A stretch of 64,000 nt of DNA from an uncultured Gammaproteobacteria bacterium (GTDB lineage: Bacteria; Patescibacteriota; Microgenomatia; Levybacterales; UBA12049): positions 124,127 to 188,126 of the forward strand of contig CAYRJZ010000003.1 in assembly GCA_964424775.1 (NCBI GenBank), in the 5' to 3' direction. The notes below the pieces were generated by a model. The model was not told the DNA's origin. It saw only the letters and a list, made by a program, of their open reading frames with translations, and did no database searches. Within the stretch, counting starts at the first letter, position 1. Every line of letters starts with the position of its first letter. This document shows positions 11,734 through 27,316 of this stretch, in pieces. Both the position numbers and the translations under genes were made by a program.

Positions 11734-11812
11734 CCCTGTCCTCCCTGTGTAACTTTCCTGAGTCCGGCACAGTTACCGTGACTCTCCTTTGTTATTCTTT
11801 CCTTTCCTGAAT

Positions 11813-11854
11813 GCTGATACCGGATCAAGGGGCATTGCCTGATCTGGTATCAGC
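11813..11854. other. long imperfect hairpin (about 17-bp stem) in the leader of the transporter gene
   Basis: gctgataccggatcaagg-ggcattg-cctgatctggtatcagc. Located between the antiporter stop (11981) and the transporter start (11733). No U-run on the minus strand. Confidence 0.4.
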
Positions 11855-11980
11855 ATAAATTTCATTTATTCATACATAACGCAATTGTTATGGTGAATGA
11901 AAGGTAGTCTGATTATTAACGTGCAAACCTACAGAAGTAGGGATAGGAATTATAAAGAAAATGAAGAGGAAAAATCAATA

Positions 11981-13933
11981 CTATCGGATGAGAGAGGAGA
12001 TACTTGCCTTTTGATATGTAACAGCAATTTCTGGATACTTCTTTTCAAGACCTTTCACTTCATTTTGATTCTTATCAATAAAGCTTTCCTGAATTTTTCT
12101 TACCTCATCAATTGCTTTCTTCAGATCCTTCTCCGTTATTAATTTATTAACACGATCCAGATATTCAAGAACAGCATAGGACGTAAATAATCGAGCTCTT
12201 AATAGTCCATATCTGTCCCGCACAAGAGAATCCTCAGTCATATCTAACATCTTACTGAGCCATCCAAAAGATGTAGCGAACTTTCGAAGTCTAAATAATC
12301 TCTTTCTAAATGAAGCACCAGTATTTATCATTCCCTCTTTACCAACTGTTCGAATATCCTGAAGATCAGGATACTCCAAAGCATCTTGTTGTATATCTAA
12401 CTCCGATTCAAATTCATGAAAAACAACTTCATTAAATCTTCCCTGTTCATAGAGTTTACGCAGTGTATTTCTTTCAATTGAAAGAGCTTGCAGTTTTAGA
12501 CTTTGTAAAAATTCAGCTGGAGTAGAAATAGTCGTAAGATCTTTCTTAATGCTAAGCTCTTTATTTGCTAATTCTTTATCAATTTCACTGATAATTCCCT
12601 CTTTAAATTGTTGACGAGACAGCTGAGTCAATTTTTGTCTCTTCTCATCAATTTCAAAGAGGGCAAGTTCATCTGCGATGATCTGTTCTTCCTTCTTCGG
12701 TAAATGAAGTTTTAATTTAAGTAAAAGCGATTTTATTGTCAGACCATTAACAAAAAGGGTGAAAAGTAAAGTAGCGAAGGTAAATTGAAGAAAGGTCTCT
12801 TTATATATAAAATCATCAGGAAGAGAATAAACAAGAACGAGCGGAATTACCCCTCTCAATCCTCCCCAGTTCAGAATATGTTGCCAGCTCATTGGAATAT
12901 TGGGCTCGTCATTAAAGAATGGCAATTTGTTACTCAGATAGGCTGTCACATAAACAGACACCGCTCGTGCCACAAGAACCACTGCAATAACAATTGCTAA
13001 TACAGGTAATTGCTCTTGGAATAAAGTAAGGTCGAGCTGATATGCCGCAAAGAAAAAGACGAGTGAAAGTGAAAAAAATCCTGCATACTCCCAAAACTCT
13101 TCAATATAATGCATTACCGTTCCATGTACTTTTCTTCGACCAAAATTACCAACAATGACTCCAGCAATTACGGTCGTAATGACACCTGAAAGATGAAAGA
13201 AATGCTCCGCACCAGTAAAGGAAACGAGCGCTATTCCAGTCGTGACACTTGCAAGAAGTATTCTTTCATGGCGGAGTTTTTCAAAAAGCCATGTAGTAAA
13301 GAATCCAATTACGAATCCCAAAATAATACTTCCAATAAAAACATACAGGAACTGTGCAGTACTCTCAAGAATTGTTAAGGGCTTGAAAGCTGTTTGGGCA
13401 ATTGCAAATGTTGATATAACACGGAATGCAATGACTGCAGTTGCGTCGTTGAACATACTCTCTCCATCTGCAAGAAGAGCAAGTCTTTTAGGTGCTCCTA
13501 ATGACTTAAAAAGAGCAAGGACAGCAATTGGGTCTGTTGCAGATATTAACGCTCCAAAAAGAAGTGCAACAGGTAACGGCATACCAAGCATACTTGCTAA
13601 GGCAAAGCCTACAACAAAGATAGAGACAAGGAGGCCAAATGTGGCAAGAAAAGTAATTGTTTTAAATTGTCTTTTAAATTCATGAATATTGATGTGAAGA
13701 GATGCTTCAAAAAGAAGTATAGGAAGCAATATGAAAAAAATGATATCAGGAGAAAGTGCTAAAGGACCACCTAAATGGACAATATGACCTATAAACTGTG
13801 TAACAAATCCTGCTAGAAGTAATGCAACGGTAAATGGAAATGATACTCTCTTCGTAAGCCATTGAAGTATTCCCATACTTGTTAAAAAAGCTCCGATAAA
13901 TATCACCCCTTCGATAAAAATATGTTTTTCCAT
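11981..13933 (-). CDS. CPA1-family Na+/H+ (cation:proton) antiporter with C-terminal cytoplasmic domain
   Basis: 650 aa, with about 12 TM helices at the N-terminus. Na+/H+ exchanger-family conserved segments (ATDPIAVLALF, FNDATAV). Long hydrophilic C-terminal domain. Confidence 0.8.
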   Translation of the reverse strand: MEKHIFIEGVIFIGAFLTSMGILQWLTKRVSFPFTVALLLAGFVTQFIGHIVHLGGPLALSPDIIFFILLPILLFEASLHINIHEFKRQFKTITFLATFGLLVSIFVVGFALASMLGMPLPVALLFGALISATDPIAVLALFKSLGAPKRLALLADGESMFNDATAVIAFRVISTFAIAQTAFKPLTILESTAQFLYVFIGSIILGFVIGFFTTWLFEKLRHERILLASVTTGIALVSFTGAEHFFHLSGVITTVIAGVIVGNFGRRKVHGTVMHYIEEFWEYAGFFSLSLVFFFAAYQLDLTLFQEQLPVLAIVIAVVLVARAVSVYVTAYLSNKLPFFNDEPNIPMSWQHILNWGGLRGVIPLVLVYSLPDDFIYKETFLQFTFATLLFTLFVNGLTIKSLLLKLKLHLPKKEEQIIADELALFEIDEKRQKLTQLSRQQFKEGIISEIDKELANKELSIKKDLTTISTPAEFLQSLKLQALSIERNTLRKLYEQGRFNEVVFHEFESELDIQQDALEYPDLQDIRTVGKEGMINTGASFRKRLFRLRKFATSFGWLSKMLDMTEDSLVRDRYGLLRARLFTSYAVLEYLDRVNKLITEKDLKKAIDEVRKIQESFIDKNQNEVKGLEKKYPEIAVTYQKASISSLIR

Positions 13934-14084: not shown

Positions 14085-14834
14085 ATGTCAATTGCACTTA
14101 CAGGGAAGAAAAAAGAACAGGCTGAAAAGTTCTACAATAAATTACTCACAACTTTAATTCGACGAAAATTACCTTTCATGGTCGGTGGGACATTTGCGTT
14201 CATGGAATATACAGGAATTGAGCGCGATACGGGTGATATTGATATTAAAATTCCTTTTGAGTCATATCCTGATATTCTCAAGTCTCTCAGTGAAGCTGGA
14301 TATAAAACTGAATTAGCGGAAATTGAACTCAACTGGCTCGCAAAGGTCACTGACCCAGAAGGATTTTATACCGACCTTATTTATGCTGAGAGAAATGGGC
14401 TTTATAAAGTTGAGGCTTCATGGCTTGATCGTTCAGGAGAAGGAACAGTTCTTGGACATAAAGTAAAGCTTGAGCCAGTTGACGAAATGATTCGCTCCAA
14501 AGCATACGTTCAAAATCGTCATCGACATGATGGAATTGATGTTATTCACCTCATCTTGAGACAAGGAAAAAATGTTAATTGGGATCTCCTTCTTGAAAAA
14601 ATGGATGAACACTGGGAGCTACTCTTAGGACATATCATCACTTTCCTTTTTGTTTATCCATCTGAAAGACAAGTTATCCCAACCAAAGTAATAAAGAGGC
14701 TTGTTGGCAAATTAGAAGATCGGATTTCACATCCACCTACAAAAGAAAAAATAACTCGTGGACTTCTTCTCTCAAATGACTATCAAGTCGGTCCTGCGCA
14801 ATGGGGATTCACTCCTATTACAGATTTGAAATAA
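14085..14834 (+). CDS. hypothetical protein, possible pol-beta-type nucleotidyltransferase fold
   Basis: GGTFAF...ERDTGDIDIKI fits the hG[GS]-x(9-13)-Dh[DE]h signature. Otherwise unassigned. Confidence 0.45.
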   Translation: MSIALTGKKKEQAEKFYNKLLTTLIRRKLPFMVGGTFAFMEYTGIERDTGDIDIKIPFESYPDILKSLSEAGYKTELAEIELNWLAKVTDPEGFYTDLIYAERNGLYKVEASWLDRSGEGTVLGHKVKLEPVDEMIRSKAYVQNRHRHDGIDVIHLILRQGKNVNWDLLLEKMDEHWELLLGHIITFLFVYPSERQVIPTKVIKRLVGKLEDRISHPPTKEKITRGLLLSNDYQVGPAQWGFTPITDLK

Positions 14835-14836
14835 CT

Positions 14837-15568
14837 ATGACAGAACGGGTAAAAAAAATAAAAGTTGCTGCTGTTGGAGATATACATGTTAAGTCTCACT
14901 TTAGTGGTGAATATAAAGAATTATTTACATCCGTTTCAGATCAGGCGGATGTCCTCGTACTTTGTGGGGATTTGACTGACCTTGGGACACCTCAAGAAGC
15001 AGAACTCCTTGCAGATGATATGCGCTACTGTAAAATTCCTATCGTTGGAGTTCTCGGCAATCACGATTATCAGTCAGATCAATCAACGGAAGTTGCACGA
15101 ATTCTTGAACAGAATTCCAATGTTACTATTCTCAAACAAGAACCAATTATCCATCATGAAATAGGGTTTGCAGGGGTCAAAGGATTTATGGGAGGGTTTG
15201 ATAGTCATGCGTTGGGAGCATTTGGAGAGCCAGAGCTCAAAGGAATTGTAAAAGAACGAGACAATCACGCTTACGCTTTAGAAAATCAGCTCAAACAACT
15301 TCCTATGGAGAGAAAAGTAGTCATTATGCACTACTCACCTATTCGAGCTACTGTTGCTGATGAACCAGCGGATATCATGCCCTTTCTTGGATCAACACGC
15401 TATGAACAGGTCATCGATCAATACGGTGCAACTGTTGTCTTTCATGGACATGCAAATATGGGACCACACGAAGGACGAACAAAAACAGGTATTCCCGTTT
15501 TTAACGTCGCACTTCCCCTTCTTGAAACACTCAAACCAAGAGTTCAATATAAAATTATTGAACTGTAA
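14837..15568 (+). CDS. metallophosphoesterase (calcineurin-like phosphoesterase)
   Basis: Start moved to MTERVKK (ATG at 14837). Motifs GDIHV, CGDLTDLG, GNHDY, GHAN. Confidence 0.75.
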   Translation: MTERVKKIKVAAVGDIHVKSHFSGEYKELFTSVSDQADVLVLCGDLTDLGTPQEAELLADDMRYCKIPIVGVLGNHDYQSDQSTEVARILEQNSNVTILKQEPIIHHEIGFAGVKGFMGGFDSHALGAFGEPELKGIVKERDNHAYALENQLKQLPMERKVVIMHYSPIRATVADEPADIMPFLGSTRYEQVIDQYGATVVFHGHANMGPHEGRTKTGIPVFNVALPLLETLKPRVQYKIIEL

Positions 15569-15573
15569 ATAAA

Positions 15574-16248
15574 CTATTTGCCAAATCGTCTCTCACGATC
15601 AGTATACCAATCAATTGCGACCTGGAGTTCCTCAGGTGTATAGTCAGGCCAAAGAACATCTGTAAAATACAACTCACTATACACAGATTGCCAGGTGAGG
15701 AAATTACTGAGTCTTTGCTCTCCACCTGTTCTGATAATAAGATCTGGATCTGGTTGTCCGGAAGTATCAAGTAATTCAGAAATCCCTTTCTCAGTTACCT
15801 TTTCTCCCTTTTCCATAAGACATGAAACCGCACGAATAATTTCATCGCGTCCACCGTAATTAAGTGCGAAATTTGCAGTAATGGTGGAATTATCTTTACT
15901 CATCTCATGGATTTCCTCAACTCTCTCAACAATATCCTGAGGGAATGCTGTGTAATTTCCAATAATATTCACTCGTACTCCCTTTTCTTGAAGTCGATCA
16001 ACAGCGGGATCGTGTAACATTTTACGGAAAATAGAAATTATTTTTTGAACCTCAAGCGGATTTCTTTTCCAATTTTCTGTAGAAAAAGAATAAAAAGTAA
16101 TGTATTTAACGCCATTTTTTGCAGCAGCTTCTACGAGAGGCTCAATACACTTTGCACCTTGTTCATGTCCTTCAGAGATTTCAAGTCCTTTTGCCTTTGC
16201 CCATCGTCTATTCCCATCCATGATGATGCCGATATGTTGTGGAGTCAT
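15574..16248 (-). CDS. uppS: undecaprenyl diphosphate synthase (cis-prenyltransferase)
   Basis: Start moved to MTPQHIGIIMDGNRRWA (ATG at 16248). The DGNRRWA and C-terminal ERRFGK motifs are typical of UppS. Confidence 0.9.
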   Translation of the reverse strand: MTPQHIGIIMDGNRRWAKAKGLEISEGHEQGAKCIEPLVEAAAKNGVKYITFYSFSTENWKRNPLEVQKIISIFRKMLHDPAVDRLQEKGVRVNIIGNYTAFPQDIVERVEEIHEMSKDNSTITANFALNYGGRDEIIRAVSCLMEKGEKVTEKGISELLDTSGQPDPDLIIRTGGEQRLSNFLTWQSVYSELYFTDVLWPDYTPEELQVAIDWYTDRERRFGK

Positions 16249-16413
16249 TGTTGAATTATACCAAATAAAAAACGCCTCCTTTATTATCTCCTTAGATAAT
16301 GAGGTAGGCGTTTTATTTCTCAAGCAGAAAGCTGTCTGCACTTCTGTCCAAATCCTGTAAAAATGGACGTACAAACAGCTTCCTGCTCATGAATAAAATG
16401 ATCAAGGATGTAG

Positions 16414-16453
16414 GTCGTCCCCCCGGCTTACGCCGGGGGGACTCCCCAAGACA
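16414..16453. repeat. island hairpin repeat, copy 1 (GTCGTCCCCCCGGCTTACGCCGGGGGGACTCCCCAAGACA)
   Basis: 40-bp element with an 11-bp stem (GTCCCCCCGGC/GCCGGGGGGAC) and loop TTAC, followed by TCCCCAAGACA. Lies 5 bp downstream of the stop of ORF 16458..16766. Confidence 0.85.
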
Positions 16454-16457
16454 AAGA

Positions 16458-16766
16458 TTAATGCCGCCTGATAAATTCATCATAGAAATCAAGAAGATAC
16501 CCTGACACAGGCCAATTTGCCCATATCAGAGCATGATACCACTTGACTTTAAACTTATAGATCTTCTCCACTGTTGTTGTGGAGAAGGTTGTGAGATGAA
16601 GTTGGTAATCATTACCACTCACCTCAACCTTAACCTGGACGATGATAGGTACTCCGTTTTTGGAAGCACGGAGATAGTCATTTTCCAGGCGGACGTGGTA
16701 CCCGGCATCCTGCAGGAGTTTGCCGAGAAACCGAAGTGACGCTTTTTTAAGCTTTTCAGTTCTCAT
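16458..16766 (-). CDS. cassette ORF A, hypothetical 102-aa protein
   Basis: SD-like GAAGGAGTGAGGA before the ATG. Flanked 3' by repeat copy 1 and 5' by a type-1 palindromic leader. No recognisable domain. Confidence 0.5.
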   Translation of the reverse strand: MRTEKLKKASLRFLGKLLQDAGYHVRLENDYLRASKNGVPIIVQVKVEVSGNDYQLHLTTFSTTTVEKIYKFKVKWYHALIWANWPVSGYLLDFYDEFIRRH

Positions 16767-16793
16767 TCCTCACTCCTTCTTGTTAACGGCAGT

Positions 16794-16809
16794 GTTCCTT
16801 CTCAGGAAC
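16794..16809. promoter_or_regulatory. type-1 leader palindrome GTTCCT-TCTC-AGGAAC followed by GAAAAA (upstream of ORF A)
   Basis: The same TTCCT-N4-AGGAA[C/G]AAAAA element recurs at 17309..17324 and 19686..19701. Confidence 0.5.
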
Positions 16810-16848
16810 GAAAAAAGACTTTCTCTTTTCACTCATGAGAATAAAAAG

Positions 16849-16888
16849 GTCGTCCCCCCGGCTTACGCCGGGAGGACTCCCCAAGACA
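16849..16888. repeat. island hairpin repeat, copy 2
   Basis: GTCGTCCCCCCGGCTTACGCCGGGAGGACTCCCCAAGACA. Stem carries one C/A mismatch. Ends 7 bp before the stop of ORF B. Confidence 0.85.
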
Positions 16889-16894
16889 TGTGAG

Positions 16895-17251
16895 CTAGAA
16901 CTCGTCGACCTCGAGCTCGTTCCGAAGAACGACGTAGCCTTGGAAGGCTGGCTCGAGCACGTTCGGATCATCCGAACGGTAGTTGGCCATGATGACCCTT
17001 TCGGGCATGGCCTCAGCAAGCGCCGCCTTTGTGAGAAGCGTCGCCTGACAGTCGAGAACGATGAAGTCTGCACGGTGCTCGAAAGCAGCCGCGATGACTT
17101 CTGCCTGCGTCACCCTCTGATCAGAGGGGACATTCGTCTCAATAACGTGGCAGTCGCTCCCGAATTTTTCCGAGAGCAATTCCCATCGATCGCCTGTCAC
17201 TGGACGAGATGCAAATCGAACGATAACAGTTCGAGGTGTATACGGCCGCAT
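16895..17251 (-). CDS. cassette ORF B, hypothetical 118-aa protein (high GC)
   Basis: SD-like GGAGACAGAACC before the ATG. About 55% GC by eye. Flanked by repeat copy 2 (3') and a type-1 leader (5'). Confidence 0.5.
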   Translation of the reverse strand: MRPYTPRTVIVRFASRPVTGDRWELLSEKFGSDCHVIETNVPSDQRVTQAEVIAAAFEHRADFIVLDCQATLLTKAALAEAMPERVIMANYRSDDPNVLEPAFQGYVVLRNELEVDEF

Positions 17252-17308
17252 GGTTCTGTCTCCATCTGTATGATCCCAGCGTAAGCACGCAGGTCGAAAA
17301 TCACACAG

Positions 17309-17324
17309 CTTCCTTGTGAGGAAG
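17309..17324. promoter_or_regulatory. type-1 leader palindrome CTTCCT-TGTG-AGGAAG followed by AAAAAA (upstream of ORF B)
   Basis: Variant of the 16794..16809 element. Confidence 0.45.
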
Positions 17325-17373
17325 AAAAAATTACTTTCTTTATAACTTCTTTCTCATCACAAAAATTTAGTAG

Positions 17374-17413
17374 GTCGTCCCCCCGGCTTACGCCGGGAGG
17401 ACTCCCCAAGACA
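17374..17413. repeat. island hairpin repeat, copy 3
   Basis: Identical to copy 2 over the 37-bp core. Confidence 0.85.
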
Positions 17414-17530
17414 AATGTGCATTCATGATGCCTCTCGATTCCTCACCTCCGTGAGGGATAACGCATCACTAGGTAGCACACCTAGGCAGTTACAGACATG
17501 CCAGTCTTTAAATTGGGTTGTCCCTGGATG

Positions 17531-17776
17531 CTAGATCCAGATTCCGCGATCGCGTTGTCGCTCCTCTTCGGCCTTGTCGGCCTCCTCCTCGCGGAGGTTG
17601 TCCCGACGGACGATCATCGCCGAGAGAACACGACGCACGCGGGGGGTGTCTGGCAACAAGCCTTTCAGCTTCACCAGATCGGGAACGTAGAGCTTGAACT
17701 CCTCAAGGTCTCTGGACCTTTTCATTTCGGACCAGATCCGCTCGAGCTCCTTGAGCGCCTCTTCCGAGGTCGTCAT
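17531..17776 (-). CDS. cassette ORF C1, hypothetical 81-aa highly charged helical protein
   Basis: RBS GGAGGGTGA before the ATG. Preceded by a type-2 leader at 17777..17840. Confidence 0.5.
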   Translation of the reverse strand: MTTSEEALKELERIWSEMKRSRDLEEFKLYVPDLVKLKGLLPDTPRVRRVLSAMIVRRDNLREEEADKAEEERQRDRGIWI

Positions 17777-17840
17777 TTCACCCTCCTATTTTCTTCATCT
17801 GCTTGACAAGCAGACGGGTCTAACAAAGACCGAGAAATGC
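17777..17840. promoter_or_regulatory. type-2 conserved leader (GGTCTTTGTTAGACCC + short hairpin CTGCTTGTCAAGCAG + SD)
   Basis: Aligns with the leaders at 18537..18603, 19219..19285 and 20170..20240. Consensus on the gene strand is GGTCTTyGTCAAAGrCCCATCCG, then a variable 5-7-bp hairpin, then GGAG and the start codon. Confidence 0.55.
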
Positions 17841-17884
17841 CTTAAATGCACTTTTCGCTCTTAGCAAAACTCCTTGTCGGAGCG

Positions 17885-17926
17885 GGATCTCTCCCGCCCC
17901 GACGATAGACCAAGACAAATGAAGCG
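17885..17926. repeat. island hairpin repeat, degenerate copy (GTCGGAGCGGGATCTCTCCCGCCCCGACGATAGACCAAGACA)
   Basis: Keeps the GTCG start, an internal GC hairpin (GCGGGA-TCTC-TCCCGC) and the terminal CCAAGACAAATG. Lies 5 bp downstream of the stop of ORF C2. Confidence 0.6.
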
Positions 17927-17930
17927 AAAA

Positions 17931-18536
17931 TTAGGCCCCGCTTCCGAGCCTGATAGAGTACACATTCCCGAACTCAGGAATTTGGTACGGGAGGAGCTTG
18001 ATACCCCTCCCCTCCAGACTCTGTCGAACGATTTCCGACCGAATATTGTGGTAGTCGCTGTCTGTGACAGCGAACCACTGTGCCAGCGGAGCCACCTCCG
18101 ACGCGAACGCCGTGATGGTGACGATGTCAGGCTCAGCCTGCATCCCCGCATCGACCGCCGACCAATGCTTGGCCGGCATCGTGACGAGCAGCTCCGGAAC
18201 CTCCGGGCTGAACTTGCTAATCGCGAAGTGCGGGATGATCTCCCGCTGCGCGAATTTGGGGACATCGCCCCCGACCAGTTCGGTCGCGAAGGTGATGGTC
18301 TGACCATCCACCTTCCCCGTTGTCCGCAGCAGGACTTTATCATTCCGAGCGGAGGGCATGACACTCCACGCGATGAGACTCTCGTCGCTTCCCCATTTGG
18401 TGACGACGAGTTTGTCCCCCCTCTGCCGTACCTCGTAACCGAGGGCGGTGAGGGTCCCGGCGAACTCCTTCACCGGGACAGGCCACTCGTGAGAGTGGTA
18501 ATTGAGGAACTCTTCGAGACCAGGGCTGCGGTACAT
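17931..18536 (-). CDS. cassette ORF C2, hypothetical 201-aa protein
   Basis: RBS GGAGGG 5 nt before the ATG. Flanked by the degenerate repeat (3') and a type-2 leader (5'). The overlapping plus-strand ORFs are Arg-rich antisense artefacts. Confidence 0.55.
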   Translation of the reverse strand: MYRSPGLEEFLNYHSHEWPVPVKEFAGTLTALGYEVRQRGDKLVVTKWGSDESLIAWSVMPSARNDKVLLRTTGKVDGQTITFATELVGGDVPKFAQREIIPHFAISKFSPEVPELLVTMPAKHWSAVDAGMQAEPDIVTITAFASEVAPLAQWFAVTDSDYHNIRSEIVRQSLEGRGIKLLPYQIPEFGNVYSIRLGSGA

Positions 18537-18603
18537 GATGTACCCTCCATTTTTCTACACCCGCTTGACTGGCGGATGGGTCTTTGACAAAGACCAAATC
18601 AAT
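18537..18603. promoter_or_regulatory. type-2 conserved leader (GGTCTTTGTCAAAGACCCATCCG ...)
   Basis: Near-perfect 17-bp palindrome GGTCTTTG-T-CAAAGACC, followed by a CCGCCAGTCAAGCGGG hairpin and the SD. Confidence 0.55.
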
Positions 18604-18649
18604 AGCAAATATTTTTACTACTGCTTTGCTTCTTATCAAAATTACGTTG

Positions 18650-18689
18650 GACGTCCCCCCGCCTTTCGGCGGGAGGACTCCCCAAGACA
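18650..18689. repeat. island hairpin repeat, copy 4 (variant GACGTCCCCCCGCCTTTCGGCGGGAGGACTCCCCAAGACA)
   Basis: Stem and loop variant (CGCC-TTTC-GGCG) with compensatory base changes that preserve the hairpin. Confidence 0.85.
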
Positions 18690-18696
18690 TGTGATG

Positions 18697-19218
18697 CTAT
18701 TCAAGCACCTTGTAAGAAATTTTTCCGGGAAGGTACACGTGGTTGAAGTTCGGATCGAGCTCAGCTCGGGTCCCGAAGACCTCCACGATCGTTCGATCGT
18801 GGAACGCGATGTACGCTTCATCGTCGCTCTCAAAAGAGTCAACGTGTTCCCCGAGATTTGGGTCCCAGAACGACTTGTCTTTGAGCCCCGATGCCATCGC
18901 GAGCAGGCGCCACGCCTGACGTGTCTGGTAGTTTTCCCGACCGAAGCCGGGATTGTTCAGCTTCTCGATGGCCTTGCGCACTTTCGGAAGCTCCATCTCG
19001 AGAATCGAGATAGTTTCGCGAAAGTACGGCATGATGTTCCGAGAGAAATCCGGCGTGAGCCGGTCAGTGTTCTCCATCAGCCAGCCGAGGATGTCTCCAG
19101 GATCGAACTCGAGCCAGAGGATCAGCTGGACCACGTCCTGCTCGGACGCGAGCTGCGTTGGAGCGGTAAGCTCCACCAACTCGTCTCGCTGACGAGTCGA
19201 ACCAAAGCTGAGTTTCAT
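18697..19218 (-). CDS. cassette ORF D, hypothetical 173-aa protein
   Basis: SD-like GGAGATTTCC before the ATG. Flanked by repeat copy 4 (3') and a type-2 leader (5'). Confidence 0.55.
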   Translation of the reverse strand: MKLSFGSTRQRDELVELTAPTQLASEQDVVQLILWLEFDPGDILGWLMENTDRLTPDFSRNIMPYFRETISILEMELPKVRKAIEKLNNPGFGRENYQTRQAWRLLAMASGLKDKSFWDPNLGEHVDSFESDDEAYIAFHDRTIVEVFGTRAELDPNFNHVYLPGKISYKVLE

Positions 19219-19285
19219 TGGAAATCTCCTCTAATTCTTCATCCGCACTCACGGATGGGCCTTTGACGAAGACCTTTCAAAGAAA
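19219..19285. promoter_or_regulatory. type-2 conserved leader (GGTCTTCGTCAAAGGCCCATCCG + hairpin CATCCGTGAGTGCGGATG)
   Basis: Aligned to the other type-2 leaders. Confidence 0.5.
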
Positions 19286-19317
19286 TTACTCTGAAAGCTT
19301 TTCATCAAATTTAATAG

Positions 19318-19357
19318 GTTGTCCCCCCGCCTTTCGGCGGGAGGACTCCCCAAGACA
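19318..19357. repeat. island hairpin repeat, copy 5 (variant GTTGTCCCCCCGCCTTTCGGCGGGAGGACTCCCCAAGACA)
   Basis: Same variant as copy 4. Confidence 0.85.
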
Positions 19358-19367
19358 AATACAGATC

Positions 19368-19646
19368 CTACAAGAATTCGTGGACCTGCTTCCGGACGCC
19401 ACGTGGCACGGTGTTGAACACCGGCACGAGACGGAACTGCCACTTCTCGGTCTTGCCGTCGTAACGGCGGACCGAGAGCGCGACGAACCGGTCGATCCTG
19501 GTGATGAGCAGCTCGTAGCTGCCCTGAGACGTGGAGATGTAGTCTTTCCCACCGAGATTGCGGTGGTTGGGCCTCATTCCCCACTTTTTCAGCTTCTCGA
19601 GAACGATCTCGAGAACGACCCGATTATTTTTCTCACGCGTTGACAT
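19368..19646 (-). CDS. cassette ORF E, hypothetical 92-aa protein
   Basis: RBS GGAGG before the ATG. Flanked by repeat copy 5 (3'). A type-1 leader palindrome lies upstream at 19686..19701. Confidence 0.5.
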   Translation of the reverse strand: MSTREKNNRVVLEIVLEKLKKWGMRPNHRNLGGKDYISTSQGSYELLITRIDRFVALSVRRYDGKTEKWQFRLVPVFNTVPRGVRKQVHEFL

Positions 19647-19685
19647 GACTGCCTCCGGTAAAGCTACAGCAGGGTCTCCCTGCCA

Positions 19686-19701
19686 GTTCCTGACGAGGAA
19701 C
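19686..19701. promoter_or_regulatory. type-1 leader palindrome GTTCCT-GACG-AGGAAC followed by GAAAAA (upstream of ORF E)
   Basis: Third copy of the TTCCT-N4-AGGAA[C/G]AAAAA element. Confidence 0.45.
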
Positions 19702-19794
19702 GAAAAATATCGATAAATCGAGACTTATCGCTAATCATCAAAAACTCCTGTGCCGGAGCCCAAGAAAGTTCGTGGAATTTGCCGTAGTCGACGG

Positions 19795-20169
19795 CTAGGC
19801 TCCACGAAGAGCCTGTTTGCTGAGACGGTGCGCCCTGCGGACGCGATAGATGACCTGGATTTCTCGAAAAATGCACCAGAAGCCGTAGCCCCAAGTGCAG
19901 AACCAGAAGATCCAAGCCGTATTGCTGCTCACGTTGTATGTGTAAGCAGCTTCCATGGCGATGAGCGCCGTAAACGCCGGGATTCCTGCGCCGACCCCGA
20001 AGAGTCGGGCATAATGCCCTTCTCCAAGGGCGTCGTCGACATCCTGATCGTGATCGCCAACGAACATCATCAGCCCACCCATGAGGCAGGCCAATATTCC
20101 AGCAACGATCGACCAGGCGACTATGATACAACTTGAAATGATAATAATACCCTCGACGATTTCGCCCAC
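19795..20169 (-). CDS. cassette ORF F, hypothetical small membrane protein (about 124 aa, 3-4 TM helices)
   Basis: Start reassigned to the in-frame GTG at 20169, preceded by GGAGAATTACC and the type-2 leader. The longer ORF-track start at 20298 would run through the leader. Hydrophobic segments IIIISSCIIVAWSIVAGILACLMGGLMMFV and AWIFWFCTWGYGFWCIF. Confidence 0.45.
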   Translation of the reverse strand: MGEIVEGIIIISSCIIVAWSIVAGILACLMGGLMMFVGDHDQDVDDALGEGHYARLFGVGAGIPAFTALIAMEAAYTYNVSSNTAWIFWFCTWGYGFWCIFREIQVIYRVRRAHRLSKQALRGA

Positions 20170-20240
20170 GGTAATTCTCCTCAGCAGATACAAACCCACG
20201 ACCTGTGGGTTAGCCTTTGACGAAGACCACGAAAAAAGCC
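20170..20240. promoter_or_regulatory. type-2 conserved leader (GGTCTTCGTCAAAGGC ... CCCACAGGTCGTGGG hairpin)
   Basis: Aligned to the other type-2 leaders. Confidence 0.45.
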
Positions 20241-20866
20241 TAGCCTCAAATGAAGCTAGACTCACCTTCGTGCTCTCCGTCATGAAAGCACACATCATTA
20301 TTCATTCCGTTGCCCCGCGAGGTCGTTAAGAACACTGATATTTGTTAACGTTCCATCTCTCCGTCTGGTAGGAATCTGAAGGCGACGCCTTTCGTCTGAT
20401 AGATCAGGGCAGAAAATCGACCTTCAGGTTCCTACCTGTTTCGTACTTTGCCGAAGCTTTCGCTTCAATTAGCCTCGAAACAATGTAGGCACTTGTCTTG
20501 GGTTCTTGAGCCATCTTCGTCGTCTTTTGGACGCAATGTCCGAAGATAACGTATCAAGCTTTCAGTACGTTGTAGCATTAGCCAACGATAAATTCAGTTC
20601 CGCAATTTGACCTTTGTATGACAGAGGATGCCGAACTGACTTTATCTGTGGCTATGTGAAGAAAATGAGGCTAAAACACAAAAAAACCAGCCCTGATACT
20701 AGATCTGAGGAATATCGGCTTACAGGCTCCGATATACTCGTGGCTGGTGAAGTAACTATTTAATTTGTTAAAGATGCAATCGAACTGACGATTACAACAC
20801 ACATCCTATCATACTATGGGACTTTTGTCAAGGGGGTACATAGCCTTGATCTGAGGCTAAAAATGA

Positions 20867-22267
20867 TCAGTCTGAGGCTAACTTTTTTATCTCCACTCCT
20901 GAGGCTGTATCCTGGATATCAAAACCCAGCTTTTTGATCTTATTTCGAATATGATCAGCCTGGACATATTGCTTATTCTTACGGGCTATTCTTCGCTCTT
21001 CTATAAGAGCCGTTACGTCCTCAGGTACATCCGCTGGCTTCCCAGCTGTAGCCTCATAAAACTCACGAAGCCCAAGTCCCAACACTTCATCCATCTTAAA
21101 GAGCGTGTGGAGCTTCTGTTCCTCAGGTATTTCAGCTTTGATCATCTCCCACATGACAGCAACTGCTTGAGGGGTATTGAGGTCATCATTGAGTGCCTCG
21201 AAAAATTTCTCTTCAAATTCATGAGCCCCTTCCTCCCCTTCTTTCCATTTCACGATAATATTGTGAAGTCGCTCAAGCGCATTTTTGCCAGCCTCAAGAG
21301 CGGCAAAAGTAAAATTCATTTCCTGTCGATAATGTGCGTTGAGATAGAGATATCGAAGATGCTCTGGGCTAAATCCCTCTTTTTCCAGATCATAAAGACG
21401 ATAATTATTCCCCTTACTTTTACTCATTCGCTCACCTGCAACGAGCATAAAAGCAGAATGTACCCAGTACTTAGCGAATTGCTGATGAGTCACTGCCTCA
21501 GATTGTGCAATTTCATTCGGATGATGTGTTTCTTTCAGGTCAATCCCTCCAGCATGAATATCAAAACTCTCACCCAAATACTTCATGCTCATCGCCGAAC
21601 ACTCAATATGCCAGCCGGGAAATCCTTTGCCCCATGGACTTTCCCACTCCATCTGTCTCTTTTCATCCTTTGGTGAGAACTTCCACAGTGCAAAATCACG
21701 AGGATTTCTTTTTTGAGGATTTACTTCGACTCGTGCTCCTTCTTTTATCTCATCAAGAGATGAGAGTTGGCCATATTCTGGAAAGAGTGACGTGTCAAAA
21801 TAAATCCCATCATCAGTTGTGTAAGTATAACCATTGTCCTCAAGTCTTTTTACGAGATCTATCTGCTCCTCGATATGATCCGTTGCTTTGGCAAAAAGCT
21901 CTGGCTGGGTAAGTCCCAATTTTTTGTAATCGTCAAGAAATGCATCGGCATAAAATGCAGCAACTTCCCAGGCTGTTTTTCCTTCTTTCGCTGCAGATTT
22001 TTCCATACGATCCTCGCCCGTATCAGCATCACCCAAATTATCTCCTGTTAAATGCCCAACGTCTGTTAGGTTCATGATGTATTTAACATCATATCCTTGT
22101 GCTTTCAGTGTCCGGATAAGGATATCTGCAGTGGTATACGTTCGGAAATTTCCGATATGTGCAAAACTATACACTGTTGGACCACAGGTATACATTCCCA
22201 CTTTTCCAGGTGTAAGAGACTTAAATTCTTCAACTTCTCGTGACAATGAATTAAAGAGACGTAACAT
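20867..22267 (-). CDS. cysS: cysteinyl-tRNA synthetase
   Basis: Class I motifs HIGN and KMSKS (RMSKSKGN). Length and order match CysS. Confidence 0.92.
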   Translation of the reverse strand: MLRLFNSLSREVEEFKSLTPGKVGMYTCGPTVYSFAHIGNFRTYTTADILIRTLKAQGYDVKYIMNLTDVGHLTGDNLGDADTGEDRMEKSAAKEGKTAWEVAAFYADAFLDDYKKLGLTQPELFAKATDHIEEQIDLVKRLEDNGYTYTTDDGIYFDTSLFPEYGQLSSLDEIKEGARVEVNPQKRNPRDFALWKFSPKDEKRQMEWESPWGKGFPGWHIECSAMSMKYLGESFDIHAGGIDLKETHHPNEIAQSEAVTHQQFAKYWVHSAFMLVAGERMSKSKGNNYRLYDLEKEGFSPEHLRYLYLNAHYRQEMNFTFAALEAGKNALERLHNIIVKWKEGEEGAHEFEEKFFEALNDDLNTPQAVAVMWEMIKAEIPEEQKLHTLFKMDEVLGLGLREFYEATAGKPADVPEDVTALIEERRIARKNKQYVQADHIRNKIKKLGFDIQDTASGVEIKKLASD

Positions 22268-27034: not shown

Positions 27035-27316
27035 TTACTTCATTCCTCCTAAAAGACCGCCAAGGCCTCCTGACATTTGTTGTAATTTTTTAGCTGCAAC
27101 TTCTTGAGATTTTTTAATAGCTTCATTCACTGCTTCGACAATATCCTTATCTGATTTGCCATTTGTTTTGATCTCTTTTATTTTTTGATCCCCACTGATA
27201 ACAACAAGCACACCCTTTTTCTCAATAGTTACTTCTTCTGCTTGAAGCTGACGCTGGATTTGCATCGCCTGATCTCGCATTTTCTTTAATTCTCCTAATT
27301 GTCCAAATGGATTCAT
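27035..27316 (-). CDS. ybaB: nucleoid-associated protein YbaB/EbfC
   Basis: 93 aa, QMQ...GGLGGLLGGM C-terminal signature. Sits in the canonical dnaX-ybaB-recR neighbourhood. Confidence 0.85.
   Translation of the reverse strand: MNPFGQLGELKKMRDQAMQIQRQLQAEEVTIEKKGVLVVISGDQKIKEIKTNGKSDKDIVEAVNEAIKKSQEVAAKKLQQMSGGLGGLLGGMK

What the first reader, a model, noticed from the sequence alone, without database searches (positions are those of the whole stretch)
16767..20240. Two classes of conserved palindromic 5' leaders inside the island suggest shared regulators
Four cassette genes (C1, C2, D, F) share a leader on the gene strand: GGTCTTyGTCAAAGrCCCATCCG, then a variable short hairpin, then GGAG and the start codon. 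The GGTCTTTG-T-CAAAGACC part is a near-perfect 17-bp palindrome, a classic dimeric-repressor operator shape, and contains a TTGTCA -35-like hexamer. The other three genes (A, B, E) instead share TTCCT-N4-AGGAA[C/G]AAAAA. The array is therefore built from at least two module types with different control elements, each carrying its own promoter and operator. That is unusual for promoterless integron cassettes. It is more like mobile promoter-containing modules or a paralogous regulon, for example toxin/antitoxin-like or stress-induced small proteins.
Basis: seen in the sequence. Interest (0 to 1): 0.6.

Follow-up and report, generated by a model that had tools for sequence, protein, structure and literature searches.

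The report
Structured RNA spacers in cassette array
The "palindromic leaders" are real, but they are the ends of long RNA-type hairpins that separate every gene in an integron-like gene-cassette array, with no integrase found in the window, of an uncultured CPR bacterium; they are not repressor operators with their own promoters.

Summary
The class-1 palindromes (GGTCTTyGTCAAAGrCC at 18579, 19258, 20212; variant at 17817) and class-2 palindromes (TTCCT-N4-AGGAA at 16794, 17309, 19686) occur only in the island. Each is just the 3' end of a 54-84-nt imperfect hairpin (LH). LH follows a GC-rich, GNRA-capped hairpin (H) after every ORF. A covariance model built from class-1, E-type and c4 copies also finds the class-2 B copy and, marginally, the copy ending a conserved ~630-nt structured non-coding "platform". 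The two classes are therefore one family.

All 21 LHs from six contigs fold much better on the sense strand: 91 versus 9 G.U pairs, one invariant U.G, and compensatory changes. Selection therefore acts on a single strand, most likely RNA, not on duplex operators. Only the platform has a good sigma-70 promoter. No regulator or recombinase was found in the window.

The element (platform plus 7 cassettes with foreign codon usage and no detectable homologues) lies between cysS and uppS of a Levyibacteria-like CPR bacterium. Relatives have empty sites, or arrays with other cassettes joined inside the class-1 hairpin.

Best reading: intercistronic RNA processing and stability modules of an integron-like, non-attC cassette array. 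They may also serve as recombination points.

The parts
20212..20866 (-). Conserved non-coding 'platform' between the cysS stop codon and the first cassette. A candidate structured RNA.
   Evidence: No ORF is conserved in frame. It aligns with L081, L082, L085, L086 and L025. RNAalifold gives 158 pairs, 24 with compensatory change. The single-sequence fold has z = -5.65. No Rfam match.
20803..20831 (-). Platform promoter TTGACA-17-TAGGAT, with TG upstream of the -10. The only strong sigma-70-like site in the island.
   Evidence: 10 of 12 matches. Conserved in L081, L082 and L025 (TTGACA-N17-TAnnnT).
20491..20505 (-). 'Anti-H' box GAACCCAAGACAAGT, the reverse complement of the (C)TTGTCTTGGG box that begins every H element.
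   Evidence: Conserved in L081, L025 and L082. In L082 the box is one C shorter, and H there is one G shorter. It lies largely in unpaired segments of the platform MFE fold.
20212..20287 (-). Long hairpin (LH) at the end of the platform. Its inner part is a terminator-like hairpin plus U6. Its 3' end is the class-1 palindrome of gene F (20212-20228).
   Evidence: RNA fold -43.2 kcal/mol on the sense strand versus -25.0 on the antisense strand, z = -8.7. Terminator-like site at 20263-20236. CM R1 hit at 20207-20292, E = 0.028, not in the training set. Invariant up to ...GGTCTTCGTCA in five arrays whose first cassettes differ.
19795..20169 (-). Cassette ORF F (GTG start, 124 aa; looks like a membrane protein by eye).
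   Evidence: No Pfam, NCBIfam, PHROG or PADLOC match. GC3 is 0.64 versus 0.28-0.36 in host genes.
19686..19767 (-). Intercassette unit F to E. It consists of a deleted H2-type hairpin (19745-19767) and an E-type LH (19686-19748). The LH ends in the class-2 palindrome TTCCT-CGTCA-GGAAC (19686-19707).
   Evidence: -22.2 sense versus -12.1 antisense. CM R1 scores 60.9 bits. The same unit precedes E in L081.
19368..19646 (-). Cassette ORF E (92 aa).
   Evidence: Homologues head the L082, L086 and L091 arrays at 36-40% identity. No real homologue among 1.84 billion cluster representatives.
19258..19358 (-). Intercassette unit E to C2. It consists of H (19317-19358, GAAA loop) and LH (19258-19316), which ends in the class-1 palindrome (19258-19274).
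   Evidence: -20.8 versus -13.7; 66 bits.
18697..19218 (-). Cassette ORF C2 (173 aa).
   Evidence: Marginal similarity to L082 c3.
18579..18690 (-). Intercassette unit C2 to C1. It consists of H (18649-18690) and LH (18579-18648), which ends in the perfect 17-nt class-1 palindrome (18579-18595).
   Evidence: -20.4 versus -10.4. The T in GGTCTTTG covaries with A in the upstream GATAAG: G-C becomes A-U.
17931..18536 (-). Cassette ORF C1 (201 aa).
   Evidence: No homologue among 5.8 billion proteins. No family match.
17817..17918 (-). Intercassette unit C1 to D. It consists of a variant H' (17870-17918) and LH (17817-17873), which ends in the variant palindrome GGTCTTTGTTAGACC (17817-17831).
   Evidence: 50.7 bits. 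The same H' type is seen in L082 at about 12878.
17531..17776 (-). Cassette ORF D (81 aa).
17309..17414 (-). Intercassette unit D to B. It consists of H (17373-17414, GTAA loop) and LH (17309-17372), which ends in the class-2 palindrome CTTCCT-CACA-AGGAAG (17309-17330).
   Evidence: -16.1 versus -10.4. CM R1 hit at 17303-17370, E = 0.0013, although B was not in the model.
16895..17251 (-). Cassette ORF B (118 aa).
16794..16889 (-). Intercassette unit B to A. It consists of H (16848-16889) and an A-type LH (16794-16847), which ends in the class-2 palindrome GTTCCT-GAGA-AGGAAC (16794-16815).
   Evidence: -17.9 versus -11.0. A closely similar LH (by eye) precedes L082 c2 and c5. CM R1 gives only a noise-level hit, E = 1.2.
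16458..16766 (-). Cassette ORF A (102 aa).
   Evidence: Marginal similarity to L082 c2.
16315..16454 (-). Array terminus: the last H (16413-16454) and a terminal long hairpin (16315-16398) with no ORF after it. A canonical terminator and the uppS promoter TGGTATAAT follow.
   Evidence: -40.7 versus -23.9, z = -8.2. Homologous terminus in L082.

Best explanation
The two 'leader palindromes' are variants of one cis-acting RNA element. Every ORF of the island is followed by a ~110-130-nt unit made of two parts. The first is H, an 11-13-bp GC-rich hairpin capped by a GNRA loop, a few nucleotides after the stop codon. The second is LH, a 54-84-nt A/U- and G.U-rich imperfect hairpin. Its 5' arm is typically TTTGATGAG(A/G)AG and its 3' arm is typically TTTTTCG-GTCTTCGTCAAA. 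It is therefore an alternative small hairpin that can form only when LH is open or cut. The array appears to be transcribed as one message from the promoter of a conserved structured platform next to cysS (inferred). The H and LH units then act on that RNA. The most likely mechanism, also inferred, has three steps. LH is a double-strand-specific (RNase III-type) processing or insulating site between cistrons. H protects the 3' end of the upstream mRNA. The small palindrome refolds as a protective 5'-terminal hairpin of the downstream mRNA. Each foreign cassette would thus be expressed as an insulated unit. What is shown: the anatomy, its conservation, the sense-strand-specific pairing and covariation, and the lack of cassette promoters. 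What is inferred: transcription from the platform, cleavage, and the stabilising roles. The same conserved sequences are also where cassette junctions fall, so they probably also serve as crossover points when cassettes are exchanged, whether by site-specific or homology-driven recombination.
For: (1) Every intercassette region of the window, L081, L082 and L086, and the platform ends of all six arrays, is predicted to form the long hairpin, with the palindrome as its 3' end. (2) All 21 LHs fold better as sense-strand RNA than as antisense: -16 to -45 versus -8 to -27 kcal/mol, z = -2.6 to -8.7. The MFE folds contain 91 G.U pairs on the sense strand and 9 on the antisense strand. (3) In the alignment of 9 LHs the outer stem has an invariant U.G (9 of 9), G-C to A-U changes in 3 of 9 sequences, 7 pairs with two-sided changes, and 97.2% of cells paired against 85.7% in shuffles (0 of 500). 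Slid controls give 36-56%. (4) H has 13 pairs, 3 of them compensatory, and every non-Watson-Crick pair is U.G on the sense strand. GNRA loops are on the sense strand in all but one of 15 copies (11 of the 12 aligned). (5) CM R1, built from class-1, E-type and c4 copies, recovers the class-2 B copy (E = 1e-3) and, marginally, the platform copy (E = 0.03). Nothing else in the 64 kb scores below E = 0.3, and antisense hits are weak. (6) With DNA parameters the hairpins are only -5 to -10 kcal/mol. (7) No promoter is shared by the leaders; the one strong promoter is in the platform. (8) All ORFs have the same orientation as cysS and uppS, and uppS has its own terminator and promoter after the array. 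(9) LH stems are roughly 20-30 bp with small internal loops and lie between cistrons. That is the known anatomy of RNase III sites, which is established knowledge and was not tested here.
Against: There are no transcript data. The platform LH contains a good intrinsic-terminator-like hairpin with U6, and an earlier terminator-like structure lies at 20680-20748, so read-through into the array is assumed, not shown. An RNA role does not explain how ORFs with foreign codon usage (GC3 0.48-0.81 versus 0.28-0.36) all acquired the same flanks. The first-cassette junction falls exactly inside the class-1 hairpin in five arrays. One H has a flipped loop (TTTC), and one H is a hybrid of two variants. 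These last three points indicate DNA-level events at the same sites. G.T pairs are also tolerated in single-stranded DNA, so top-strand DNA folding is not excluded. Only three independent lineages are available (window/L081, the L082 group, L025), all from metagenome assemblies.
Confidence: 0.55

Rival explanations
1. Recombination sites. The H+LH unit, or the class-1 hairpin core GGTCTTCGTCA|A, is the attC/attI-like site of a new cassette-exchange system. It would be recognised as folded or duplex DNA by an unidentified recombinase encoded elsewhere. Any RNA structure would be a by-product or a second function.
For: The platform end is invariant up to ...GGTCTTCGTCA in the window, L081, L082, L084, L085 and L086, while what follows differs with the first cassette (F, X, E homologue, y1). 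Cassette X carries its own right arm (ATGACC) both at position 1 (L081) and at position 2 (L086). L082 and L085 are 97.5% identical in backbone and 99.7% identical in platform, yet have different first cassettes. The H after the E homologue in L086 is a hybrid of two H variants, and one H loop is inverted. The cassettes have foreign codon usage, no detectable homologues, and uniform lineage-specific repeats, as in sedentary chromosomal integrons. The anatomy (conserved outer arms, variable centre, 54-84 nt) resembles attC. Relatives have empty sites.
Against: No integrase or transposase was found among about 49 ORFs of the window or next to any array. The core is GTCAAAG/ATTTGAT, not GTTRRRY/RYYYAAC. 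The strand that folds well is the sense strand, whereas integrons use the bottom strand. As DNA the hairpins are weak, and 18% G.T pairs is unusual for a DNA site. The LH type follows the downstream gene, not the upstream one as attC would. Junctions at the ends of conserved sequence are also what homologous recombination between conserved functional elements would give.
Confidence: 0.22
2. The palindromes are duplex operators for dimeric repressors, overlapping cassette-borne promoters, and define two regulons.
For: C1 has a perfect 8-1-8 palindrome containing TTGTCA. The motifs are strongly over-represented and lie 40-60 nt upstream of the start codons. One leader (C1) has a weak TTGATA-17-AAAAAT site.
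Against: The arms are imperfect in a strand-asymmetric way: G.T on the sense strand and never A.C. The left arm and loop pair better with a conserved upstream segment, with covariation. There is no -10 at the right distance from TTGTCA, and no promoter-like site in 6 of 7 leaders. The two classes belong to one structural family. No regulator gene is nearby, and the 105-aa candidate is absent from the L082-group loci fetched. There are no copies outside the array in 64 kb, or in 1.47 Mb of related DNA.
Confidence: 0.06
3. Transcription punctuation. H and/or LH are intrinsic terminators or attenuators, so each cassette is expressed only by regulated read-through or from weak AT-rich promoters in the LH apex.
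For: The scan flags the H after B (16877-16852, followed by CTTTTTA) and the inner hairpin of the platform LH (20263-20236, followed by TTTTTT) as terminator-like. LH 3' arms contain U-runs, and LH apices are AT-rich. uppS has its own promoter after the array.
Against: In 4 of 5 H copies the U-run is 8-11 nt from the stem. In LH the U-run is inside the stem, paired to a purine tract, not after it. Cassette LH inner stems are AU-rich, which is poor for termination. No -10 is conserved in the apices, and A-type LHs have none.
Confidence: 0.12

Closest known systems
Integron cassette arrays, in particular sedentary chromosomal integrons and CALINs (clusters of attC sites lacking an integrase)
   Same: A one-directional array of small, apparently promoterless ORFs with foreign codon usage and no detectable homologues. 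The ORFs are separated by lineage-homogeneous imperfect-palindrome repeats of about 60-130 nt with conserved ends and variable centres. A fixed platform with a promoter lies upstream. Cassette content differs between near-identical strains, and the first cassette is joined at a fixed point of the platform site. attC hairpins are also known to affect the expression of downstream cassettes at the RNA level (review PMC8876359).
   Different: No IntI in the window or next to any array fetched. The core is GTCAAAG/ATTTGAT, not GTTRRRY/RYYYAAC. The well-folding strand is the sense strand, whereas IntI uses the bottom strand (PMC6393395). Imperfections are G.U wobbles and 1x1 internal loops rather than extrahelical bases. 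There is an extra GC-rich hairpin H. The LH type follows the downstream gene. The platform is a ~630-nt structured non-coding region rather than intI plus attI.
REP/BIME elements (repetitive extragenic palindromes; mobilised by RAYT/TnpA-REP; stabilise upstream mRNA)
   Same: H is a 36-45-nt GC-rich imperfect palindrome just after stop codons. On the antisense strand most copies start with (G/A)TAG, the REP hallmark tetranucleotide. REPs act as 3' mRNA stabilisers. These REP properties are from my own knowledge.
   Different: H is seen only inside the array and always in one orientation, not dispersed (within the 64 kb and the related loci available). No RAYT gene was seen. H is coupled to LH and to a platform box.
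Intercistronic RNase III processing hairpins of phage T7 mRNAs, and segmental-stability hairpins of polycistronic operons (for example puf, malEFG-REP)
   Same: Imperfect dsRNA hairpins of roughly 20-30 bp with small internal loops lie between cistrons of a long transcript. A stable hairpin is left at the 3' end of the upstream message. The function would be to give each cistron its own stability and translation. These properties are from my own knowledge.
   Different: Cleavage was not tested. Here the hairpins have conserved arm sequences and an invariant U.G, they sit in a variable cassette array, and they coincide with cassette junctions.
Palindromic operators of dimeric repressors
   Same: A short inverted repeat upstream of genes; perfect in one copy (C1).
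   Different: Strand-asymmetric imperfections, covariation with a distant upstream arm, no promoter overlap, no cognate regulator found, and no sites outside the array.
tracrRNA anti-repeat : CRISPR repeat pairing
   Same: A conserved non-coding unit upstream of a repeat array carries a box (CCCAAGACAAG) complementary to a box in every repeat (UUGUCUUGGG). The lengths of the two boxes change together in L082.
   Different: Only 9-13 nt of complementarity. The repeats flank protein genes. No cas genes. Pairing was not tested. The relation could equally be a DNA inverted repeat.

Membership tests
Integron (attC cassette array) | An integron integrase gene (intI) adjacent to the array, or elsewhere in the genome for a CALIN | tested here: not met
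   The array is flanked by cysS and uppS. About 49 ORFs of the 64-kb window were screened with Pfam and none has a Phage_integrase or transposase domain. None lies next to the arrays in L081-L086. The rest of the genome was not available.
Integron (attC cassette array) | attC ends R'' = RYYYAAC and R' = GTTRRRY, with the conserved AAC/GTT triplet | tested here: not met
   The LH arms are ATTTGAT... and ...GTCAAAG, matching 5 of 7 positions each, and the GTT/AAC triplet is replaced by GTC/GAT. No GTTRRRY lies at either end of H or LH.
Integron (attC cassette array) | The recombinogenic fold is on the bottom strand, with extrahelical bases | tested here: not met
   The sense (top) strand folds better in 21 of 21 LHs. 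Imperfections are G.U wobbles and symmetric 1x1 loops.
Integron (attC cassette array) | Each repeat belongs to the cassette upstream of it (ORF, then its own attC) | tested here: inconclusive
   The H type follows the upstream gene (H2 after F and X). The LH type follows the downstream gene: a C-type LH precedes paralogues c3 and c7, and an A-type LH precedes A, c2 and c5, though those protein similarities are marginal.
Integron (attC cassette array) | Promoterless cassettes expressed from a platform promoter, with cassette content varying between strains | tested here: met
   Only the platform has a strong promoter-like site. First or second cassettes differ between L082, L085 and L086 (95-97.5% backbone identity) and between the window and L081. 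Expression itself was not tested.
Dimeric-repressor operator with promoter | A duplex inverted repeat whose two half-sites are conserved symmetrically | tested here: not met
   Nearly all arm mismatches are G.T on the sense strand (C2, F, y1, L025), with a single T.T in cassette X. The right arm varies with the cassette while the left arm is constant.
Dimeric-repressor operator with promoter | Overlap with, or adjacency to, a -35/-10 promoter | tested here: not met
   No -10 lies 16-18 nt after TTGTCA. One of 7 leaders has any promoter-like site.
Dimeric-repressor operator with promoter | A cognate regulator gene that co-occurs with the sites | tested here: not met
   No HTH protein was found in the window ORFs screened. 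The 105-aa candidate is present only in L081.
REP/BIME | GTAG or GTGG tetranucleotide 5' of an imperfect GC-rich palindrome | tested here: met
   On the antisense strand H reads (G/A)TAG-GTCGTCCCCCCGGC-TTAC-GCCGGGAGGAC in 3 of 5 window copies and 6 of 7 L082 copies.
REP/BIME | Many copies dispersed in intergenic regions genome-wide, in both orientations, with a RAYT gene | tested here: not met
   Copies occur only inside the array, all in one orientation, in the 64 kb and in the 10-kb flanks of related arrays. No RAYT was seen. The whole genome was not available.
RNase III-type intercistronic processing site | About 20 bp or more of imperfect dsRNA between cistrons on the transcribed strand | tested here: met
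   LH stems are roughly 20-30 bp with small internal loops, are sense-strand specific, and show covariation.
RNase III-type intercistronic processing site | Cleavage by RNase III, giving processed 5'-P and 3'-OH ends in the stem | not testable with these tools
   This needs RNA-end mapping or an in-vitro assay.
Intrinsic terminator | A GC-rich hairpin immediately followed by a U-tract | tested here: inconclusive
   Met by the platform LH inner hairpin and by the H after B. Not met by the other four H copies or by the cassette LHs.

The most novel reading that the evidence does not exclude
The island is a self-contained gene-cassette system of CPR bacteria that works without an integron integrase and is organised around RNA. 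A conserved ~450-630-nt platform RNA carries an anti-repeat box (CCCAAGACAAG). That box base-pairs with the UUGUCUUGGG box next to the H hairpin after every cassette. The pairing would guide processing of the polycistronic transcript, in the manner of tracrRNA, or would even template or guide cassette capture and exchange at the H and LH sites, in the manner of a bridge RNA or a retro-cassette.
Probability: 0.1. Interest if true: 0.9.

Novelty: new variant of a known kind. Interest (0 to 1): 0.62.

Why it matters
If this reading is right, some CPR (Patescibacteria) bacteria keep a hot spot between two housekeeping genes. Small foreign genes with no detectable homologues are stockpiled and swapped there, as in an integron, but with none of the integron's defining parts: no IntI was seen, there is no GTTRRRY core, and the other strand folds. 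Each gene is wrapped in conserved RNA structure that would insulate its expression.

This would give a concrete, testable example of how reduced-genome symbionts acquire and express accessory genes. It would provide a new family of modular intercistronic RNA elements. It would also bear on the long-standing question of how cassettes acquire uniform flanking repeats.

For annotation, it shows that palindromes upstream of cassette genes should not be read as operators without checking strand asymmetry and longer-range pairing.

Tried and rejected
1. Rfam found nothing for H, LH or the platform, either at gathering thresholds on the whole window or at E up to 5 on 16200-20900. There are no tRNA or tmRNA genes.
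2. Exact-pattern scans for H in genome contigs and metagenome contigs, and for two platform blocks in viral and metagenome collections, gave 0 hits. An H variant in viral contigs gave 0 hits. The degenerate class-1 pattern gave 74 single, unrelated hits in viral contigs, which I estimate to be about chance level, with no array context.
3. Protein routes gave nothing useful. C1 has no record and no homologue. The E-family profile finds only the L082-type copy (P0121 = L091) and spurious repeat-protein hits. The seven cassette proteins have no Pfam, NCBIfam, PHROG or PADLOC match. The weak AcrIIA4 and HARP hits are below threshold and were ignored.
4. An ORF runs through the platform end in the window (MMCAFMTESTK...) and in L082. 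I rejected it as coding: the frame is not kept in L025, and it differs from the cassette frame in L082.
5. I rejected reading H+LH as one canonical attC. There is no R''/R' pairing beyond GTCTT/AAGAC, and the strand is wrong.
6. I looked for per-cassette promoters in LH apices. There is no conserved -10 and the spacing is inconsistent.
7. The cysS-uppS intervals of more distant relatives (L001, L002, L005) contain ordinary genes with no repeats. Relatives with 72-74% CysS identity (L087-L089) have no element.
8. I first took the 105-aa ORF to be YbaB by position. That was wrong: YbaB is the 93-aa ORF at 27035-27316, identified by position against the PF02575-annotated 93-aa gene in L081. The 105-aa ORF has no Pfam match and occurs only in L081.

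Full report
WHAT IS THERE. The finding lies in a 4.6-kb island (about 16250-20866) of 49-61% G+C in a 38% G+C chromosome. The island carries seven small ORFs, all on the minus strand: F 20169-19795, E 19646-19368, C2 19218-18697, C1 18536-17931, D 17776-17531, B 17251-16895 and A 16766-16458. It lies between cysS (20867-22267) and uppS (15574-16248), both also on the minus strand. The wider neighbourhood is housekeeping: corA, recR, prs, dnaX and others. The closest CysS relatives are Patescibacteria/Levyibacteriota MAGs, so the host is a CPR bacterium.

GGTCTTYGTCAAAGRCC is exact upstream of C1 and C2 and has one mismatch upstream of F. There were 6 hits at up to 3 mismatches against 0.42 expected. 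D has a variant, GGTCTTTGTTAGACC. There are no further copies in the window. None occur in 1.47 Mb of other CPR loci except in homologous arrays.

THE PALINDROMES ARE PARTS OF A LARGER REPEAT UNIT. Every ORF is followed, 5-10 nt after its stop codon, by element H: TTGTCTTGGGGAGTCCTCCCGSCGWAAGSCGGGGGGACGACCTA. It has an 11-13-bp stem and a GAAA or GTAA loop. There are five near-identical copies against 0 expected, plus two degenerate ones. Folding each complete intercassette region shows what lies between H and the SD. It is dominated by one long imperfect hairpin, LH, of 54-84 nt. Its 5' arm starts right after H, typically as TTTGATGAG(A/G)AG. The small palindrome is therefore an alternative to LH. 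Its right arm (AAAGACC and variants) lies outside LH.

ONE FAMILY, NOT TWO. The E leader reads TTCCT-CGTCA-GGAAC, with the same loop as class 1, GTCTT-CGTCA-AAGAC. I built a covariance model from nine class-1, E-type and c4 LHs. In the window it finds the class-2 LH of B (E = 1e-3) and, marginally, the LH at the end of the platform (E = 0.03), neither of which was in the model. It finds the A copy only at noise level (E = 1.2). Nothing else in the 64 kb scores below E = 0.3, and antisense scores are low.

SELECTION IS ON ONE STRAND. For 21 LHs from six contigs, the sense strand folds as RNA at -16 to -45 kcal/mol and the antisense strand at -8 to -27. The sense strand is better in 21 of 21 cases, with z = -2.6 to -8.7. 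The MFE structures contain 91 G.U pairs on the sense strand and 9 on the antisense strand. If the pairing were only a relic of a duplex palindrome, transitions would give G.T and A.C mismatches equally often. In an alignment of nine LHs the 8-bp outer stem has an invariant U.G, a G-C to A-U exchange in three sequences, and further two-sided changes. Of all cells, 97.2% are paired against 85.7% in shuffles (0 of 500), and slid controls give 36-56%. H behaves the same way: 3 of 13 pairs are compensatory, and all non-Watson-Crick pairs are U.G on the sense strand. With DNA energy parameters the cassette LHs are only -5 to -10 kcal/mol. These results argue for RNA, against duplex operators, and against integron-type bottom-strand folding.

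NO CASSETTE PROMOTERS AND NO REGULATOR. The consensus scan finds one strong promoter in the island: TTGACA-17-TAGGAT with an upstream TG, at 20831-20803, in the non-coding stretch next to cysS. Among the seven leaders it finds only one weak site, TTGATA-17-AAAAAT, before C1. TTGTCA inside the palindrome has no -10 partner. The 105-aa ORF proposed as regulator has no Pfam match. It is present only in the nearest relative, L081, and not in the L082-group loci fetched (10 kb upstream of cysS), although those arrays have the same leaders. No recombinase, transposase or HTH regulator was found among about 49 ORFs screened.

COMPARATIVE CONTEXT. CysS relatives retrieved from the protein collection led to contigs with the same locus. 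L081 has 95% CysS identity to the window, and L082/L083/L084, L085 and L086 have 82%. All have the non-coding 'platform' after cysS, followed by arrays of unannotated small ORFs. In L082, eight cassettes run up to uppS. They are separated by H copies (TTGTCTTGGGAGTTCCCCCGGCGAAAGCCGGGGGAACAACCTA, with compensated stem changes relative to the window) and by LHs. These end in class-1 hairpins (12042, 12967, 15417), class-2 hairpins (12475, 14534) or other hairpins. Relatives with 72-74% CysS identity (L087-L089) and L003 have cysS directly followed by uppS or another core gene; these are empty sites. A distant Levyibacteriota MAG, L025 (53% CysS identity), nevertheless has the platform. It ends in a class-1 hairpin with an extra compensated base pair (GGTCGTT-CGTC-AACGATC), followed by AGGAGG and an ORF. 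The element begins inside the last codons of cysS: the AGCCTCAGA motif gives CysS a C-terminal ASD, ASE or ASK extension that empty-site relatives lack.

THE PLATFORM. Its ~630 nt align across the three lineages. RNAalifold predicts 158 pairs, 24 of them with compensatory changes. The window copy folds with z = -5.65. The platform contains the promoter, a terminator-like structure (20680-20748) and two long covarying stems. It also contains a box GAACCCAAGACAAGT (20491-20505) that is the reverse complement of the box starting every H. It ends with its own LH. It has no Rfam match.

CASSETTE JUNCTIONS. The platform end is invariant up to ...TTTTTTCGTGGTCTTCGTCA in the window, L081, L082, L084, L085 and L086. 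The next bases differ with the first cassette: F has AAGGCT, X has ATGACC, the E homologue has AAGACC, and y1 has GAGGAC. Cassette X keeps ATGACC whether it is first (L081) or second (L086). L082 and L085 are 97.5% identical over 10 kb and 99.7% identical in the platform, yet have different first cassettes. L082 and L086 share the first cassette but not the second. The H after the E homologue is a hybrid of two H variants in L086, and one L082 H has an inverted loop. Exchange therefore happens at or in the conserved elements. On the other hand, homology between the paralogous modules c3 and c7 (27.6% protein identity over the aligned stretch) is 96% over 102 nt, from the first base of LH to the start codon. 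The H+LH blocks before c2 and c5 are 91% identical. The leaders thus evolve in concert, or are exchanged, independently of the coding sequences. The LH type tends to go with the downstream gene family. This is firm for c3/c7 and marginal for the A family (A, c2 and c5; BLASTP E = 0.004-0.3 in a small database).

THE CASSETTES. GC3 is 0.48-0.81, against 0.28-0.36 in cysS and uppS, with normal coding periodicity. There are no family matches. C1 has no homologue among 5.8 billion proteins. The E family has no true homologue among 1.84 billion cluster representatives. The cassettes are therefore real genes with foreign codon usage and no detectable homologues, as is typical of integron cassettes.

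INTERPRETATION. What is shown is a modular repeat (H + LH + small hairpin) with sense-strand-specific, covarying structure between all cistrons of a one-directional array that is headed by a promoter-bearing structured platform. I infer that the units act on a polycistronic RNA. The most likely mechanism has three parts. LH is an RNase III-type processing or insulating hairpin. H is a 3' stabiliser. The small palindrome refolds as a 5'-terminal protective hairpin after cleavage. This accounts for the mutually exclusive LH and small-hairpin pairings both being conserved. My confidence that these are RNA elements rather than operators is about 0.7. My confidence in the specific processing mechanism is about 0.3. 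The explanation as stated gets 0.55.

The main rival, at 0.22, is that the same sites are the recombination sites of a new cassette system. The two readings are not exclusive. RNA function does not explain how the cassettes were captured, and the junction data show that DNA events occur exactly there. The operator/promoter model is disfavoured (0.06). Terminator or attenuator roles remain possible for part of the structure (0.12).

COMPARISON WITH KNOWN SYSTEMS. The array works like an integron in its layout and variability. It fails each defining test that I could run: no intI in the window or next to any array fetched, no GTTRRRY/RYYYAAC core, the wrong folding strand, and LH linked to the downstream gene. 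The attC features are taken from PMC8876359 and PMC6393395. H resembles REP elements (GTAG plus a GC-rich palindrome) but is not dispersed. LH resembles phage T7 intercistronic RNase III sites in anatomy only. Literature searches for integrons or cassette arrays in Patescibacteria found nothing comparable.

LIMITS. Only three independent lineages are available, all from metagenome assemblies, and contigs tend to break inside H. There are no transcript data. Only 64 kb of the host genome was available. The strand-asymmetry argument cannot fully exclude top-strand single-stranded DNA.

Noticed in passing
window 20212-20866 (minus strand); L081/L082/L085/L086 about 11400-12060; L025 3585-4260: A ~630-nt non-coding 'platform' between cysS and the array is conserved across three lineages. 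It has 24 compensatory base pairs, its own promoter, and an internal terminator-like structure (20680-20748), and it has no Rfam match. It is a candidate new structured RNA.
   Followed up: partly
window 20491-20505 versus 16446-16454, 17406-17414, 17910-17918, 19350-19358 (and ATGTCTTGG at 16881-16889 and 18682-18690): The platform box GAACCCAAGACAAGT is the reverse complement of the TTGTCTTGGG box at the 5' edge of every H, giving 9-13 nt of complementarity. In L082 the platform box has one C fewer and H has one G fewer. This could be RNA-RNA pairing or a DNA inverted repeat.
   Followed up: partly
window 20852-20880, 20666-20673, 20241-20248; cysS stop at 20867-20869: The 8-mer TAGCCTCA occurs 6 times in the window against 1.35 expected. 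Four copies are in the platform, and one of them overlaps the cysS stop codon. Array-bearing genomes have a CysS C-terminal ASD, ASE or ASK extension encoded by this motif, which empty-site relatives lack. The element therefore seems to begin inside the end of cysS.
   Followed up: partly
L082 14462-14519 (also L083): One H copy has its tetraloop inverted (GGCTTTCGCC instead of GGCGAAAGCC) while the stem is unchanged. This is a flip typical of DNA-level hairpin events.
   Followed up: no
L086 12403-12450: The H after the E-homologue cassette is a hybrid. Its left arm is of the L082 type (GTTCCCCCGGC) and its right arm and flank are of the window type (GCCGGGGGGACGACCTAC). This suggests a crossover inside H.
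   Followed up: partly
window 16413-16454 and other H copies, read on the plus strand: On the antisense strand H reads (G/A)TAG followed by a GC-rich imperfect palindrome. That is the signature of REP elements, which are recognised by RAYT transposases. No RAYT was seen.
   Followed up: no
window 17415-17530: An extra ~115 nt of non-coding sequence lies between the stop codon of D and its H. It contains two hairpins (CCTAGGTGTGCTACCTAGG and CCCTCACGGAGGTGAGGAA). It may be a decayed cassette or another RNA element.
   Followed up: no
L082 12930-13031 versus 15380-15481; 12397-12514 versus 14456-14573: Leader modules are 96% and 91% identical in front of ORFs whose proteins are only about 21-28% identical. 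The non-coding leaders evolve in concert, or are swapped, while the coding parts diverge very fast.
   Followed up: partly
window 16255-16314: After the array, uppS has its own canonical terminator (AAAACGCC...GGCGTTTTTT) followed by TGGTATAAT, only about 7 nt before the ATG, so its mRNA is near-leaderless. In empty-site relatives uppS follows cysS within 30-70 nt.
   Followed up: no
window 10500-11500: A second G+C-rich patch (52-54%) lies within a CitMHS-family transporter gene (10372-11733, minus strand), unlike the 38% surroundings.
   Followed up: no
L082/L085/L086 3439-7621: Relative to the window, the 82% lineage has extra genes inserted around prs, between ybaB and recR: a 467-aa protein (faint ParB_N), a 459-aa protein with two GerE HTH domains, and a 115-aa GerE protein.
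   Followed up: no
window 31840-31954 (minus strand): This is the best LH-model hit outside the island (13.4 bits, E = 0.3). It overlaps the 3-mismatch class-1 hit at 31845-31861 and lies inside a 418-aa ORF with no Pfam match. It is probably chance.
   Followed up: no
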